Part shown: positions 4,502 to 14,508 of the stretch, one piece after another
How the letters are laid out: every line of letters begins with the position of its first letter
How positions within the stretch are numbered: the first letter of the stretch is position 1
IMG/VR virus record: IMGVR_UViG_2541047726_000006
Coordinates: 1-18,343 of that record
DNA length: 18,343 bases
Reading direction: 5' to 3' (one strand)
Source: a virus
Taxonomy: Duplodnaviria; Heunggongvirae; Uroviricota; Caudoviricetes
The notes under the pieces: generated by a model
Seen by the model: the letters and a program-made list of their open reading frames with translations, nothing else
Told to the model about the DNA's origin: nothing
Databases searched by the model: none
Translations under genes and position numbers: made by a program

Positions 4502-4559
4502 AAAAAGGGCGGCAGAGCAGTCACGGAGTAAAACTGATACCGCCAAACGTCACCAGAAA
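4502..4559 (-). ncRNA. dicF: DicF small RNA (ftsZ-targeting sRNA)
   Basis: The reverse complement of 4502-4559 reads TTTCTGGTGACGTTTGGCGGTATCAGTTTTACTCCGTGACTGCTCTGCCGCCCTTTTT, which matches the DicF sequence I recall, including the terminal GC stem and U-run. Ends are approximate because DicF is processed from the operon transcript. Confidence 0.85.
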
Positions 4560-12045: not shown

Positions 12046-12503
12046 GAGAGGTTAACTATGAGGCGCTTCGTGAGGCAGCACAAAACTATCAGTCGACGCT
12101 GGCGTGGTATCAGGCTATCCCGGACAGCCCAAATGCTGAACGGGATTGTGATGCGGCTCTTGCTGCGTTTAAGCGTCACATCCGTCATCGGGAAGCGGAT
12201 ATTATCGCTGATTTGCTGGATGGACTGGAAGAAGCAAAATCACAACTCAAAGAGCAGCGTGAGTATTACGAAGGCGTTATCTCTGATGGGAGCAAGCGTA
12301 TTGCTGAACTGGAAGCGCGGGAAGTTCAATTACCGACTCGCTACGACCTTCGATATGGACACCCGATAAATGCAGATGAGCGACATGTCATGATACCTAA
12401 AGAAAATGGCAGTTGGCTTTACCTGATTGACCTAGAACACGCATTACGCGTCTCTGGCATTCGCATCAAAGGAGAGGAGCATGGAAATAAAACCAGAGGA
12501 TGA
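12042..12503 (+). CDS. Hypothetical protein
   Basis: 153-aa ORF with a CAGGAGGTGG Shine-Dalgarno. No family recognised. Confidence 0.6.
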   Translation: MREVNYEALREAAQNYQSTLAWYQAIPDSPNAERDCDAALAAFKRHIRHREADIIADLLDGLEEAKSQLKEQREYYEGVISDGSKRIAELEAREVQLPTRYDLRYGHPINADERHVMIPKENGSWLYLIDLEHALRVSGIRIKGEEHGNKTRG

Positions 12504-12837
12504 GTTAAGCAATATCGTTTTATTTCCGGTAAAAGAGGATGACCCTCGTAATCAGGTTAATTTTCTTTATGAGCCATCGGAAAGACCATATTGTCATCAC
12601 GCCTCTGTCCGGGTTGACGAAAAAGAGCGTCAGGTCCGCTGTAAAATCTGCGGTGCAGTTGTGGAGCCATTTGACTGGATGCTCTCTGTGGCGAAAAGAG
12701 AAACCAGACTGGCAGATGATGTAAGGCACTTGCGCCAGGAGGAGCGGGAAAGGCGAAAAAATATAGAAAAGCTAATTCAGATTGAGCGTAACGCGAAAGC
12801 GCGGATACGCAGGGCGACAAAATCCAGAACTGAATAA
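12481..12837 (+). CDS. Hypothetical protein with a putative zinc ribbon (CHH...CxxC) and a basic coiled-coil tail
   Basis: 118-aa ORF with an AGGAGAGGAG Shine-Dalgarno. Motif YCHHASVRVDEKERQVRCKICGAV, then an Arg/Lys/Glu-rich C-terminus. Confidence 0.6.
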   Translation: MEIKPEDELSNIVLFPVKEDDPRNQVNFLYEPSERPYCHHASVRVDEKERQVRCKICGAVVEPFDWMLSVAKRETRLADDVRHLRQEERERRKNIEKLIQIERNAKARIRRATKSRTE

Positions 12838-12901: not shown

Positions 12902-12930
12902 AGGAGGCCGCCCGAAAGGGCGGTAGTTAA
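12902..12930 (+). promoter_or_regulatory. Split ribosome-binding site: AGGAGG separated from the ATG by a GC stem with a GAAA tetraloop
   Basis: AGGAGG at 12902-12907, hairpin CCGCCC-GAAA-GGGCGG at 12908-12923, then AGTTAA and the ATG at 12931. Linear spacing is 23 nt; with the hairpin formed the effective spacing is about 6-7 nt. Confidence 0.4.
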
Positions 12931-13113
12931 ATGCGAAAGTTTAAAATAATTATTGAAACGGGAATAGCCGGTGGAGATTTCGAGGATGAATTCGAAGTGG
13001 ATGATGATGCGATGCCTGATGAAATACATGACGAAGCAAAAGATATTTTCTTTAACTACTGCAATTACTCATATCACGAAATAAAAGACGAAGAGGAAGA
13101 GCAAAATGGCTGA
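12931..13113 (+). CDS. Small highly acidic protein (60 aa, about 20 Asp/Glu)
   Basis: MRKFKIIIETGIAGGDFEDEFEVDDDAMPDEIHDEAKDIFFNYCNYSYHEIKDEEEEQNG. AT-rich coding sequence. Its stop overlaps the next start. Confidence 0.5.
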   Translation: MRKFKIIIETGIAGGDFEDEFEVDDDAMPDEIHDEAKDIFFNYCNYSYHEIKDEEEEQNG

Positions 13114-13282
13114 TTTTGGTTCAACTAAATACAACGTCAGTTTTGAAGCATGGCATGAACTGTTAATGGACTATGCAGAGTTACGTGGTGGCAGTGCTGC
13201 TGATGCTGAAGCATGGCGTGATGATTATGAAGCAGGAAAAACTCCGGTCGAAGCATATTGTGATGAGTGGGGCGATGAATGA
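13106..13282 (+). CDS. Small acidic protein (58 aa), absent from the ORF track because it is under 60 aa
   Basis: ATG at 13106 preceded by GAGGAAG. Product MADFGSTKYNVSFEAWHELLMDYAELRGGSAADAEAWRDDYEAGKTPVEAYCDEWGDE. Start overlaps the previous stop and stop overlaps the next start (ATGA). Confidence 0.45.
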   Translation: MADFGSTKYNVSFEAWHELLMDYAELRGGSAADAEAWRDDYEAGKTPVEAYCDEWGDE

Positions 13283-13794
13283 GCGAGATTAATTATCAGG
13301 AAGGGCATGAAACGGCAGGGCAGGCAAAACCAGTTGCATGGCGATATCGCTACGTGAAAAAAGACGTTACAGACTTTCAGGGGAAGCCGTGGGCTGGTGA
13401 CTGGAAATATGTACCGACAAAAGAGGATTGTAACGACAGGCCGAACTATGAAATTCAGGCCTTATTCATCGGCCCGCCAGTCCCGGTGACATCAGAAGGA
13501 CTGGTTAAAGCCGTGCGCTTTTATGAACAGGTAAAGCGTGAGAATCCGCCAGTCGAAACAGGAGCATGGAAGGATGCTGTTGACTGGGTGCTCAGAGAGG
13601 CCTGCTGCGCTGCCATTCTGGGTAAAGCCGACAATCCACCAGCATCCGGCAATCAGGTTAGCGAATTAACAATGTGGGTTAAACGACTGGTCAGTCAACT
13701 GAAAAAAGCTCAGCCGGACTGTAAATTACCGGAGAAGGCGATGGATTACCTGAAACGAAATGGACTGATAAGCGTGGAGGATGTTTTACGATGA
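13279..13794 (+). CDS. Hypothetical protein
   Basis: 171-aa ORF translationally coupled to the two acidic ORFs. No family recognised. Confidence 0.6.
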   Translation: MSEINYQEGHETAGQAKPVAWRYRYVKKDVTDFQGKPWAGDWKYVPTKEDCNDRPNYEIQALFIGPPVPVTSEGLVKAVRFYEQVKRENPPVETGAWKDAVDWVLREACCAAILGKADNPPASGNQVSELTMWVKRLVSQLKKAQPDCKLPEKAMDYLKRNGLISVEDVLR

Positions 13795-13870: not shown

Positions 13871-13914
13871 GAGGTGTGTTTAAATGTTATTGCACATTGA
13901 TTGTAGGGGGAATA

Positions 13915-14094
13915 ATGAAAAACGCATTGCAGTTTTTGTTTGTTGCGTTCTGGTTGTTCGCATCATGTATGCCCATCATCTTCACAGCAAGGTATATGGA
14001 AAAAATTGATGTTTTGATATTAATGTTTGGACATATAAATGCCCTTTTTTTAGGGGTGTTCATGGCGGTCATGTGCATTGAATACTGGCGGTAA
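13915..14094 (+). CDS. Small hydrophobic protein (59 aa, two predicted transmembrane segments)
   Basis: ATG at 13915 with an AGGGGG Shine-Dalgarno. Product MKNALQFLFVAFWLFASCMPIIFTARYMEKIDVLILMFGHINALFLGVFMAVMCIEYWR. Lies in a very AT-rich segment. Confidence 0.45.
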   Translation: MKNALQFLFVAFWLFASCMPIIFTARYMEKIDVLILMFGHINALFLGVFMAVMCIEYWR

Positions 14095-14145: not shown

Positions 14146-14237
14146 CGGTTTGCGGGGAAATCTTAGTTAAGTAGAATAACTGCGGGTGCTTGAGGCTATC
14201 TGTCTCAGGCATGAACACCAAAAGGCAGATAGAGAAA

Positions 14238-14302
14238 AGCCCCAGTTAACATTACGCGTCCTGCAAGACGCTTAACATTAATCTGAGGCCATATCTATGC
14301 GA
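14238..14302 (-). ncRNA. sok: Putative Sok-like antisense RNA, position inferred only
   Basis: By analogy with plasmid R1 hok/sok, the antisense RNA should cover the mok leader and start region. A candidate minus-strand -35 TTGACC is the complement of 14334-14339. Ends are not determined. Confidence 0.25.
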
Positions 14303-14356
14303 CACATAGAGATTAGCCTCTTACGGACCGAAAGGTCAAGGAGAAGCAGGCTATGA
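14297..14356 (+). CDS. mok: Short mok-like leader ORF (19 codons) ending in overlap with the hok start
   Basis: ATG at 14297 preceded by GAGG; encodes MRHIEISLLRTERSRRSRL and stops at TGA 14354-14356, overlapping the hok ATG at 14353 (ATGA). Confidence 0.3.
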   Translation: MRHIEISLLRTERSRRSRL

Positions 14357-14508
14357 AGCAGCAAAAGGCGATGTTAATCGCCCTGATCGTCATCTGTTTA
14401 ACCGTCATAGTGACGGCACTGGTAACGAGGAAAGACCTCTGCGAGGTACGAATCCGAACCGGCCAGACGGAGGTCGCTGTCTTCACAGCTTACGAACCTG
14501 AGGAGTAA
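14353..14508 (+). CDS. hok: Hok-family type I toxin (51 aa), absent from the ORF track because it is under 60 aa
   Basis: MKQQKAMLIALIVICLTVIVTALVTRKDLCEVRIRTGQTEVAVFTAYEPEE matches the Hok/HokD (RelF) family as I recall it. The upstream leader has complementary CUAUCUG/CAGAUAG elements. Confidence 0.9.
   Translation: MKQQKAMLIALIVICLTVIVTALVTRKDLCEVRIRTGQTEVAVFTAYEPEE

What the first reader, a model, noticed from the sequence alone, without database searches (positions are those of the whole stretch)
12931..13794. AT-rich three-gene cassette led by two very acidic small proteins: candidate DNA-mimic anti-defence module
Two consecutive small ORFs (60 and 58 aa) each have a strongly negative net charge, roughly -15 and -11, and the first is far more AT-rich than its neighbours. 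Both are translationally coupled to a 171-aa ORF through overlapping stop/start codons. Small acidic early phage proteins are the classic signature of DNA mimics such as Ocr and ArdA, which block restriction and other host defences. I recognise no family for any of the three, so this may be an undescribed anti-defence or host-takeover cassette.
Basis: partly seen in the sequence, partly recalled or inferred. Interest (0 to 1): 0.62.

Follow-up and report, generated by a model that had tools for sequence, protein, structure and literature searches.

The report
Two acidic prophage proteins, function unknown
Two tiny, very acidic proteins sit side by side in the early accessory region of an E. 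coli lambda-like prophage; they are real, conserved and found in about a third of complete E. coli genomes, but nothing here shows that they mimic DNA or block host defences, and the third gene is a shuffled mosaic, not a fixed partner.

Summary
orfA (12931-13113, 60 aa, net -15, 36.6% GC), orfB (13106-13282, 58 aa, net -11) and orfC (13279-13794, 171 aa) exist with 8-nt and 4-nt overlaps. A and B are by far the most acidic ORFs in the window.

The window is a dicB/DicF-type lambdoid prophage. The genes lie between the replication genes and hok/sok, rusA and Q.

- **orfA** belongs to Pfam DUF7167, a family of about 57-aa phage proteins from Escherichia, Klebsiella, Pseudomonas and Enterococcus hosts; acidity is conserved.
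- **orfB** is a separate small family (PHROG 519) found in Ackermannviridae, KP34-like phages and IncI2 plasmids.
- **A and B together:** adjacent only in E. coli-type lambdoid phages (80/80 loci; 1750 of 5426 genomes).
- **orfC** is a mosaic sharing modules with DUF551- and Ea22-containing proteins, and is often replaced.

Predicted folds (hairpin + helix + acidic tail; three-helix bundle) match no solved structure, including DNA mimics.

Best reading, at moderate confidence: two independent early accessory proteins that bind and block nucleic-acid-binding proteins of the host or of rival elements. True DNA mimicry is neither shown nor excluded.

The parts
12902..12930 (+). Translation-initiation region of orfA. 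It contains an SD-like AGGAGG (12902-12907), a 7-bp G+C hairpin with a GAAA loop (12907-12924), 6 nt including an in-frame TAA, then the ATG.
   Evidence: Sequence. The hairpin is in both the MFE and the centroid fold. It stays with orfA when the upstream gene is different (ArgO145, Rac 442/2, PhiR42_1).
12931..13113 (+). orfA: 60 aa, net charge -15, Pfam DUF7167 / phrog_1997. Predicted beta-hairpin (2-9, 16-23), helix (29-46) and a disordered acidic tail.
13106..13282 (+). orfB: 58 aa, net charge -11, phrog_519, no Pfam family. Predicted three-helix bundle (13-27, 34-42, 47-55) with invariant W16 and W37 and a conserved G-x-T-P turn.
13279..13794 (+). orfC: 171 aa, near-neutral, phrog_660. 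A mosaic of about four modules (1-16, 17-66, 67-115, 116-171) that recur in other combinations, including in proteins carrying DUF551 or Ead/Ea22 domains. It is a variable neighbour, not a fixed partner.
12481..12837 (+). Upstream 118-aa ORF with a Zn-ribbon-like motif and a basic C-terminal helix (phrog_1621). It is the usual upstream neighbour of orfA in E. coli-type loci but is absent in some.

Best explanation
orfA and orfB are two unrelated small acidic accessory proteins of mobile elements, and each moves independently. In E. coli lambdoid phages they have become a fixed, translationally coupled pair, transcribed with the delayed-early operon. No promoter or terminator separates them from the replication genes.

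Shown here:
- They are real genes.
- Acidity is conserved in both families.
- Each occurs alone in other phages and plasmids.
- orfC is a recombining mosaic, not part of a fixed unit.

Inferred: each protein most likely acts stoichiometrically as a small binder or inhibitor. Its negative surface (B) or acidic tail plus compact hairpin-helix core (A) would occupy the nucleic-acid-binding site of a host or rival-element protein. That would be an anti-defence or host-takeover role by electrostatic decoy, as reported for the small acidic protein TifA. It would not be shape mimicry of B-DNA in the manner of Ocr or ArdA. The target is unknown.
For: - **Anatomy and charge:**
- **Setting:** a lambdoid prophage, with the genes between the O/DnaC-like replication genes and hok/sok, rusA and Q. 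No sigma-70 promoter or terminator matches lie nearby. The same block sits in the mosaic accessory region with Ea22-like genes in Stx phage ArgO145.
- **orfA family:** Pfam DUF7167, 51.3 bits against a cut-off of 24.4. Homologues of 55-65 aa with net charge -10 to -16 occur in phages of Klebsiella, Pseudomonas and Enterococcus and in metagenomic viral contigs. The best structural matches are uncharacterised 57-aa proteins of Escherichia phage phAPEC8 and Lactococcus phage 949. Neighbours are variable.
- **orfB family:** 76 clusters in 1.84 billion representatives, nearly all stand-alone proteins of 50-70 aa. Acidic and aromatic columns are conserved and the mean charge is -9. Members occur in Ackermannviridae, KP34-like Autographiviridae and Lastavirus, and 561 plasmid records match, 516 of them predicted conjugative, with the roughly 60-kb IncI2-type plasmids dominating the listed hits, including pHNSHP45.
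- **The A-B pair:** present in 1750 of 5426 complete E. coli genomes and in 80 of 80 viral loci, while the flanks vary.
- **Selection:** orfA's few allele differences are mostly synonymous (dN/dS about 0.1); orfB is less clear (about 0.5).
- **Precedent:** TifA, a small acidic phage protein that binds and inhibits type IV restriction enzymes and that its authors decline to call a bona fide DNA mimic (PMC10680825).
Against: - There is no direct functional evidence of any kind.
- There is no similarity to any known anti-defence protein or to any solved structure.
- PADLOC holds defence systems only, and no anti-defence library was available.
- In Vi01-like phages the orfB homologue lies just after the major capsid gene, which is not an obvious early position.
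- In IncI2 plasmids it heads the operon that runs into the type IV secretion genes, not the region next to the relaxase genes.
- Genes of the comparable exo-xis region are reported to act on the lysis-lysogeny decision, not on defence (PMC7093339, PMC8614690).
- The orfA model rests on only 8 sequences (pLDDT 78.6).
Confidence: 0.4

Rival explanations
1. True DNA mimics. A and/or B, probably as oligomers, would display carboxylates in the pattern of B-DNA phosphates and competitively block restriction-modification or BREX enzymes, like Ocr or ArdA. This is a narrower case of the best explanation.
For: The charge is extreme and conserved (pI about 4). The genes sit in early accessory positions on phages and, for orfB, on plasmids predicted to be conjugative. 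orfA is spread across phages of Gram-positive and Gram-negative hosts, which suggests a broadly conserved target.
Confidence: 0.1
2. Modulators of phage development. [quoted passage not shown]
For: In ArgO145 the block lies among Ea22-like genes in a mosaic accessory region, and in the window it follows an Ea22-like gene. Exo-xis genes are described as early, mosaic and acting on lysogenisation and induction (PMC7093339, PMC3824215, PMC8614690). orfC shares modules with Ea22-like and DUF551 proteins.
Against: Both families also occur in phage groups such as Ackermannviridae, KP34-like Autographiviridae and Herelleviridae. From my own knowledge these are strictly lytic, so they have no lysogeny decision to make. 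orfB also occurs on plasmids.
Confidence: 0.2
3. Partners of the element's own proteins. They might neutralise or chaperone a basic DNA-binding protein, such as the 118-aa Zn-ribbon protein with its basic tail, or modulate a phage nuclease.
For: The 118-aa ORF is the upstream neighbour in most E. coli-type loci. In Klebsiella Guernseyvirinae the orfA homologue overlaps the start of a 454-aa PD-(D/E)XK exonuclease inside the recombination/replication module. From my own knowledge, this position resembles T7 gene 5.9 next to gene 6, or lambda gam next to bet and exo.
Against: The neighbours of orfA differ across 24 diverse viral loci: Ea22-like, DUF551-like, ASCH-like, HNH-like, a Cys-rich 70-aa protein and a helicase-like protein, all judged by eye from sequence motifs. 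The 'exonuclease' next to orfA in Enterococcus phages looks ASCH/DUF3850-like by sequence motif and by the annotation in a sister phage. The 118-aa gene is missing in the Rac 442/2 record and in two of the 80 viral loci. orfB homologues have yet other neighbours.
Confidence: 0.12
4. Decaying or functionless ORFs carried along in a recombining prophage region.
For: Some copies are disrupted: PhiR42_1 is annotated as fragments, and frameshifted or truncated variants are in the databases. The window's orfA allele carries Met in place of a Thr kept in nearly all relatives examined.
Against: There is protein-level conservation across unrelated phage groups and hosts. For orfA synonymous changes dominate. 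Start, length and overlap are conserved in 80 of 80 loci.
Confidence: 0.03

Closest known systems
Pfam DUF7167 (PF23768) / phrog_1997
   Same: orfA is a member: 51.3 bits against a cut-off of 24.4, over the full length. RefSeq already labels the gene 'DUF7167 family protein'.
   Different: The family has no known function. No paper in the searchable library mentions it.
Ocr (T7 gp0.3) and ArdA, DNA-mimic anti-restriction proteins
   Same: Very acidic (pI about 4), encoded by phages or plasmids, and placed in early or accessory positions.
   Different: No sequence or fold similarity. From my own knowledge, Ocr (116 aa) and ArdA (about 166 aa) form elongated dimers that imitate long stretches of DNA. 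A and B have about 45 ordered residues each, and their folds differ (hairpin-helix; three-helix bundle).
TifA (Enterococcus phage phi47 Orf65)
   Same: A small phage protein with an unusually electronegative surface that binds and inhibits nucleases (type IV restriction enzymes). Its authors decline to call it a bona fide DNA mimic (PMC10680825). This is the mode of action I consider most likely here.
   Different: TifA is reported as SH3-like, whereas orfA is hairpin + helix and orfB is all-helical. No homology is shown. The targets of A and B are unknown.
Small acidic nuclease or glycosylase inhibitors (T7 gp5.9, lambda Gam, phi29 p56, PBS2 Ugi)
   Same: From my own knowledge, these are of comparable size and charge. 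The orfA homologue in Klebsiella Guernseyvirinae sits directly before a phage exonuclease, much as gene 5.9 sits before gene 6 in T7.
   Different: None appears among the structural or sequence matches. The exonuclease neighbourhood is not general.
Ead/Ea22-like (PF13935) and DUF551 (PF04448) mosaic proteins of lambdoid accessory regions
   Same: orfC shares whole modules with proteins that carry these domains (P0223, P0186). An Ea22-like gene replaces it after orfB in ArgO145. Part of orfC matches phrog_250, the family that the window's own Ea22-like protein matches best.
   Different: orfC itself matches neither Pfam model. Ea22 is reported as prolysogenic, with a coiled coil and a dimeric C-terminal domain (PMC10834534); none of this was tested for orfC.

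Membership tests
Pfam DUF7167 (orfA) | Score above the curated gathering threshold over the whole domain | tested here: met
   51.3 bits against a cut-off of 24.4, E 1.2e-13, residues 2-53 on profile positions 1-60 of 60.
PHROG 519 (orfB) | Significant match to the family profile | tested here: met
   E 2e-22, but only profile positions 76-137 of 143 are covered. Exhaustive HMMER finds nearly all relatives as stand-alone proteins of 50-70 aa.
PHROG 660 (orfC) | Significant match to the family profile | tested here: met
   E 4.2e-75, residues 2-171. Parts of orfC also match phrog_26213, 924, 8171, 250 and 30109, which is the signature of a mosaic.
DNA-mimic anti-restriction proteins (Ocr / ArdA type) | Strong net negative charge, pI about 4 | tested here: met
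   Net -15 and -11, pI 4.05 and 4.06. The charge is conserved in both families.
DNA-mimic anti-restriction proteins (Ocr / ArdA type) | Homology or fold similarity to a known mimic | tested here: not met
DNA-mimic anti-restriction proteins (Ocr / ArdA type) | Surface carboxylates spaced like B-DNA phosphates on a rigid, DNA-sized (usually dimeric) body | not testable with these tools
Only the secondary structure is known. The small ordered cores and orfA's disordered acidic tail argue against this feature, by inference.
DNA-mimic anti-restriction proteins (Ocr / ArdA type) | Binds and inhibits a DNA-binding defence enzyme | not testable with these tools
   This needs experiments.
Ead/Ea22-like (PF13935) and DUF551 (PF04448), for orfC | Match to the Pfam model | tested here: not met
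   orfC has no Pfam match at E up to 0.1. It only shares modules with proteins that carry these domains.
Fixed three-gene operon or cassette | The three genes co-occur as a unit in related and distant elements | tested here: not met
   A-B were together in 80 of 80 close loci, but full-length orfC in only about a third of them. The whole cassette is in 780 genomes against 1750 for A-B. A and B are never adjacent outside E. coli-type phages.
Known anti-phage defence proteins (PADLOC) | Match to a defence-system model | tested here: not met
   No matches for A, B or C.

The most novel reading that the evidence does not exclude
DUF7167 (orfA) and/or the orfB family would be founding members of new families of small electrostatic-decoy inhibitors of DNA-targeting defences (R-M, BREX or nuclease-based). 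Such inhibitors would be shared across very different hosts. Their carriers would include temperate and lytic phages from Escherichia to Enterococcus, IncI2 mcr-1 plasmids, and prophages in about a third of complete E. coli genomes.
Probability: 0.25. Interest if true: 0.65.

Novelty: new member of a known kind. Interest (0 to 1): 0.33.

Why it matters
If either protein is an inhibitor of host defence, it would be a very common one. The pair is in 32% of complete E. coli genomes. orfB relatives are on the IncI2 plasmids that spread mcr-1, and orfA relatives are in phages of Gram-positive and Gram-negative bacteria. Such inhibitors affect how easily phages and plasmids move between strains and how well therapeutic phages work. 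As it stands, this is only a reasonable candidate among many uncharacterised small phage proteins. The solid results are that DUF7167 is a consistently acidic hairpin-helix protein, that orfB defines a compact three-helix family, and that the supposed three-gene cassette is a conserved pair plus a mosaic neighbour.

Tried and rejected
- **Family libraries.** NCBIfam and PADLOC gave nothing for A, B or C. Pfam gave nothing for B or C.
- **PDB sequence searches.** Single sequences and family profiles gave only chance-level matches, including designed proteins.
- **Literature.** Searches for DUF7167, the RefSeq accessions and peptide strings found no paper. The phage accessory-gene screen preprint contains none of the search terms lambdoid, Ea22 or acidic, and its supplementary gene lists were not searched.
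- **An 'orfA goes with an exonuclease' idea.** It holds in Klebsiella Guernseyvirinae. I dropped it as a general rule because the Enterococcus 'exonuclease' looks ASCH/DUF3850-like and neighbours vary across 24 diverse loci.
- **An 'orfB lies in a plasmid leading region' idea.** In pHNSHP45 it heads the operon that runs into the type IV secretion genes, roughly 18 kb from the relaxase genes across the replication gene. This gives no clear support.
- **An apparent DUF1187-orfB fusion (P0261).** It is a frameshift artefact.
- **A scan of one genome per species.** It found only two orfA loci, one on a Collinsella MAG contig that is probably contamination.
- **Promoter and terminator scan.** It found nothing that sets the genes apart as their own transcription unit.

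Full report
**1. Observation**

Recomputed net charges are -15, -11 and +1, and pI values are 4.05, 4.06 and 7.59.

orfA is 36.6% GC (GC3 34%), against 49.0% for the window. The start of B lies 8 nt inside A (ATGGCTGA), and B and C share ATGA.

Among the 72 M-start ORFs of at least 50 aa in all six frames, A and B are the two most acidic. They carry -0.25 and -0.19 charge per residue. The next ORF is at -0.08, and the set has mean +0.045 and sd 0.08.

**2. Setting**

The window is a lambdoid prophage of E. coli. In the near-identical RefSeq record it lies next to potC. The gene order there is:
- int, xis, a large exonuclease, dicB
- a RelE-family toxin, cI/cro-like regulators, YdaT
- an O-like HTH protein and a DnaC-like ATPase
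- DUF1627, DUF977, DUF4406, an Ea22-like protein, a 118-aa hypothetical
- orfA, orfB, orfC
- hokD, DUF968, RusA and a DUF1133 (Q-like) protein

Rfam finds sok at 14184-14355 and DicF at 4507-4558 on the minus strand. The genes therefore sit in the region between the replication genes and Q, which corresponds to the lambda nin region.

No sigma-70-like promoter or intrinsic terminator match sets them apart. Co-transcription with the delayed-early rightward operon is the simplest inference.

In Stx phage ArgO145 the same block is arranged as Ea22-like, the 118-aa ORF, a 70-aa ORF, A, B and then another Ea22-like gene. There it lies in a mosaic accessory region near one end of the genome.

**3. 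Families**

- **orfA** is a member of Pfam DUF7167 (51.3 bits, cut-off 24.4) and of phrog_1997. RefSeq already names it so.
- **orfB** matches phrog_519 only, and orfC matches phrog_660.
- **orfC in parts** also matches five other PHROGs, including phrog_250, which is the best match of the window's own Ea22-like protein.
- **Other libraries:** NCBIfam and PADLOC give nothing.
- **Solved structures:** none is related by sequence, with single sequences or with family profiles.
- **Literature:** no paper in the library mentions DUF7167, the RefSeq accessions or the peptides.

**4. Distribution and linkage**

The A-B pair with its leader is present at 80% coverage or more in 1750 of 5426 complete E. 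coli genomes, with up to 4 copies. The full A-B-C stretch is in only 780. Phage records show breakpoints just inside the start of orfC and in its middle.

I analysed 80 viral contigs carrying orfA at 98% identity:
- orfB follows with the same overlap in all 80.
- The 118-aa ORF lies upstream in all but two.
- Full-length orfC is present in about a third.
- In most of the rest, only roughly the first 100 residues of orfC are kept, with a different C-terminus. In a few, orfC is absent or replaced.

Outside E. coli the two acidic genes part company. Evidence for orfA relatives:
- **Klebsiella prophages:** 68% identical, followed by a basic Cys-rich 70-aa protein and a DUF551 protein.
- **Klebsiella Guernseyvirinae:** the gene overlaps the start of a 454-aa PD-(D/E)XK exonuclease in the replication/recombination module.
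- **Enterococcus Herelleviridae and a Pseudomonas phage**.
- **24 diverse viral contigs:** all 55-65 aa where the start is clear, net charge -10 to -16, with varied neighbours and never orfB.
- **One genome per species:** only two loci were found, so the family is essentially phage-borne.

Evidence for orfB relatives:
- **Family size:** small, at 76 clusters at 50% identity in 1.84 billion proteins, nearly all stand-alone proteins of 50-70 aa.
- **Phages:** they occur in Vi01-like Ackermannviridae (just after the major capsid gene), KP34-like Autographiviridae and Lastavirus.
- **Plasmids:** 561 plasmid records match, 516 of them predicted conjugative, and the listed hits are dominated by roughly 60-kb IncI2-type plasmids at 86% identity.
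- **Plasmid context:** in the mcr-1 plasmid pHNSHP45 the gene sits in the order CaiF/GrlA-like regulator, DUF1187, orfB homologue, SPFH, NfeD, and then the type IV secretion genes.

**5. Sequence and structure**

*orfA family.* Invariant or nearly so are the N-terminal MR-x-x-x-V-x-IET strand, E-V, a D-A-T-x-E-E-I helix cap, A36, F40 and C44, plus an acidic C-terminal run. AlphaFold2 on a shallow alignment (8 sequences, pLDDT 78.6) gives a beta-hairpin (2-9, 16-23), a helix (29-46) and a low-confidence acidic tail.

*orfB family.* W16 and W37 are invariant. L20, A24, G44 and P47 are nearly so. Aromatic columns are 13, 16, 37, 41, 51 and 55. Acidic columns are 14, 15, 33, 35, 39, 40, 42, 49, 53, 54 and 57. 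The mean net charge is -9, with a range of -1 to -13. AlphaFold2 (26 sequences, pLDDT 86) gives three helices at 13-27, 34-42 and 47-55.

*Selection.* Among E. coli alleles the few changes in orfA, the first 100 codons of orfC and the 118-aa ORF are mostly synonymous (dN/dS 0.11-0.17). orfB is less clear at about 0.5, on few changes. The deep conservation is the stronger evidence for coding.

**6. orfC**

Related proteins show at least four modules:
- 1-16, a leader
- 17-66, 'PVAWRYRY...'
- 67-115
- 116-171

They are joined by Pro-rich linkers and occur in many combinations. Examples are a 119-aa form (modules 1-3), a 132-aa form (1, 2 and 4), 187-210-aa forms (a different N-terminus plus 3 and 4), a 264-aa form with a Cys-rich C-terminus, and fusions with DUF551 (P0186) or Ead/Ea22 (P0223). 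orfC itself matches no Pfam model. It is a typical mosaic protein of lambdoid accessory regions, not a fixed third member of a cassette.

**7. How it most likely works**

*Shown:*
- Two real, conserved, independently distributed small acidic proteins.
- Their acidity is a family property.
- They form a fixed, translationally coupled pair only in E. coli-type lambdoid phages.

*Inferred:* each acts as a stoichiometric binder that uses its negative surface or tail to occupy the nucleic-acid-binding site of a host or rival-element protein. That would be an anti-defence or host-takeover role. The nearest documented precedent is TifA, a small acidic phage protein that binds type IV restriction enzymes and is not a bona fide DNA mimic (PMC10680825). 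I give this about 0.4.

*Rivals:*
- Strict DNA mimicry, about 0.1. There is no fold support, the ordered cores are small, and orfA's acidic run is disordered.
- A role in the lysis-lysogeny decision, like the exo-xis genes, about 0.2 (PMC7093339, PMC8614690). Weighing against it, both families occur in phage groups that I know to be lytic, and orfB on plasmids.
- A partner of the element's own proteins, about 0.12. Weighing against it, the neighbours vary.
- Functionless ORFs, about 0.03.

**8. Comparison with what is known, and novelty**

orfA is a member of a catalogued but uncharacterised family. orfB and orfC are members of uncharacterised PHROGs. Neither acidic protein can be filed with Ocr, ArdA, Gam, gp5.9, p56 or Ugi. 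The charge criterion is met, the homology/fold criterion is not, and the surface-pattern and activity criteria could not be tested here.

If the best explanation holds, these are new families of a known kind of protein. Interest is moderate to low for now: the lead is plausible and very widespread, but it is one of many small acidic phage proteins without a phenotype.

**9. Caveats**

- The orfA model rests on 8 similar sequences.
- The 80 linkage loci were selected for near-identity to orfA, so their A-B linkage partly reflects recent common descent. However, the flanks do vary.
- No anti-defence profile library, multimer prediction or electrostatics was available.
- No structure was obtained for orfC.

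Noticed in passing
window 12902-12933: An SD-like AGGAGG is separated from orfA's ATG by 23 nt that contain a 7-bp G+C hairpin with a GAAA loop (12907-12924). Once folded, the hairpin would bring the SD to about 6 nt from the ATG. From my own knowledge, this resembles the split ribosome-binding site described for T4 gene 38. The element travels with orfA even when the upstream gene differs.
   Followed up: partly
window 13012-13014 (orfA codon 28): The window's orfA allele has Met at residue 28. Nearly all relatives examined, including those from Klebsiella and Enterococcus phages, keep Thr there in the D-A-T-x-E-E-I helix cap; the Pseudomonas-phage-type sequences also have Met. All 80 close viral loci are 98% identical to the window allele, which fits a single private substitution.
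   Followed up: partly
window 14184-14508: A complete hok/sok-type type I toxin-antitoxin locus lies directly downstream: Rfam sok (106.7 bits) and a 51-aa Hok/Mok-like ORF at 14353-14508.
   Followed up: partly
window 4507-4558, minus strand: DicF antisense RNA (76.7 bits) lies next to dicB, which marks the prophage as a dicB/DicF-type (Qin/Kim-like) lambdoid element.
   Followed up: no
window 13876-14094: A 72-aa, very hydrophobic ORF (MFKCYCTLIVGG...) lies in the AT-rich gap (36-38% GC) between orfC and hok/sok. It matches no PHROG and is not annotated in the RefSeq twin. It could be a small membrane protein or just an open frame.
   Followed up: partly
L008 1090-1474 (pHNSHP45, NZ_KP347127.1 62542-62926): An 86%-identical orfB homologue is carried by IncI2 plasmids, including the original mcr-1 plasmid pHNSHP45. 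It overlaps the end of a DUF1187 (RcbA-like) gene and is followed by SPFH and NfeD genes at the head of the operon that runs into the type IV secretion genes.
   Followed up: partly
window 12481-12837: The 118-aa ORF upstream has a C-H-H...C-x2-C Zn-ribbon-like motif (weak TFIIB Zn-ribbon match, below threshold) and a very basic C-terminal helix. It is 96-100% conserved in most loci that carry A-B. Its function is unknown.
   Followed up: partly
L097 (JAIHTM010000290.1): A 3-kb contig of a Collinsella MAG encodes a 97%-identical orfA. This is most likely an E. coli prophage fragment binned by mistake.
   Followed up: no
L004 2471-3013 (Enterococcus phage MDA2 orf174): The gene annotated 'exonuclease' next to the orfA homologue ends in a sequence that looks ASCH/DUF3850-like by motif. 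A sister phage annotates the same position as DUF3850, so the 'exonuclease' label is doubtful.
   Followed up: partly
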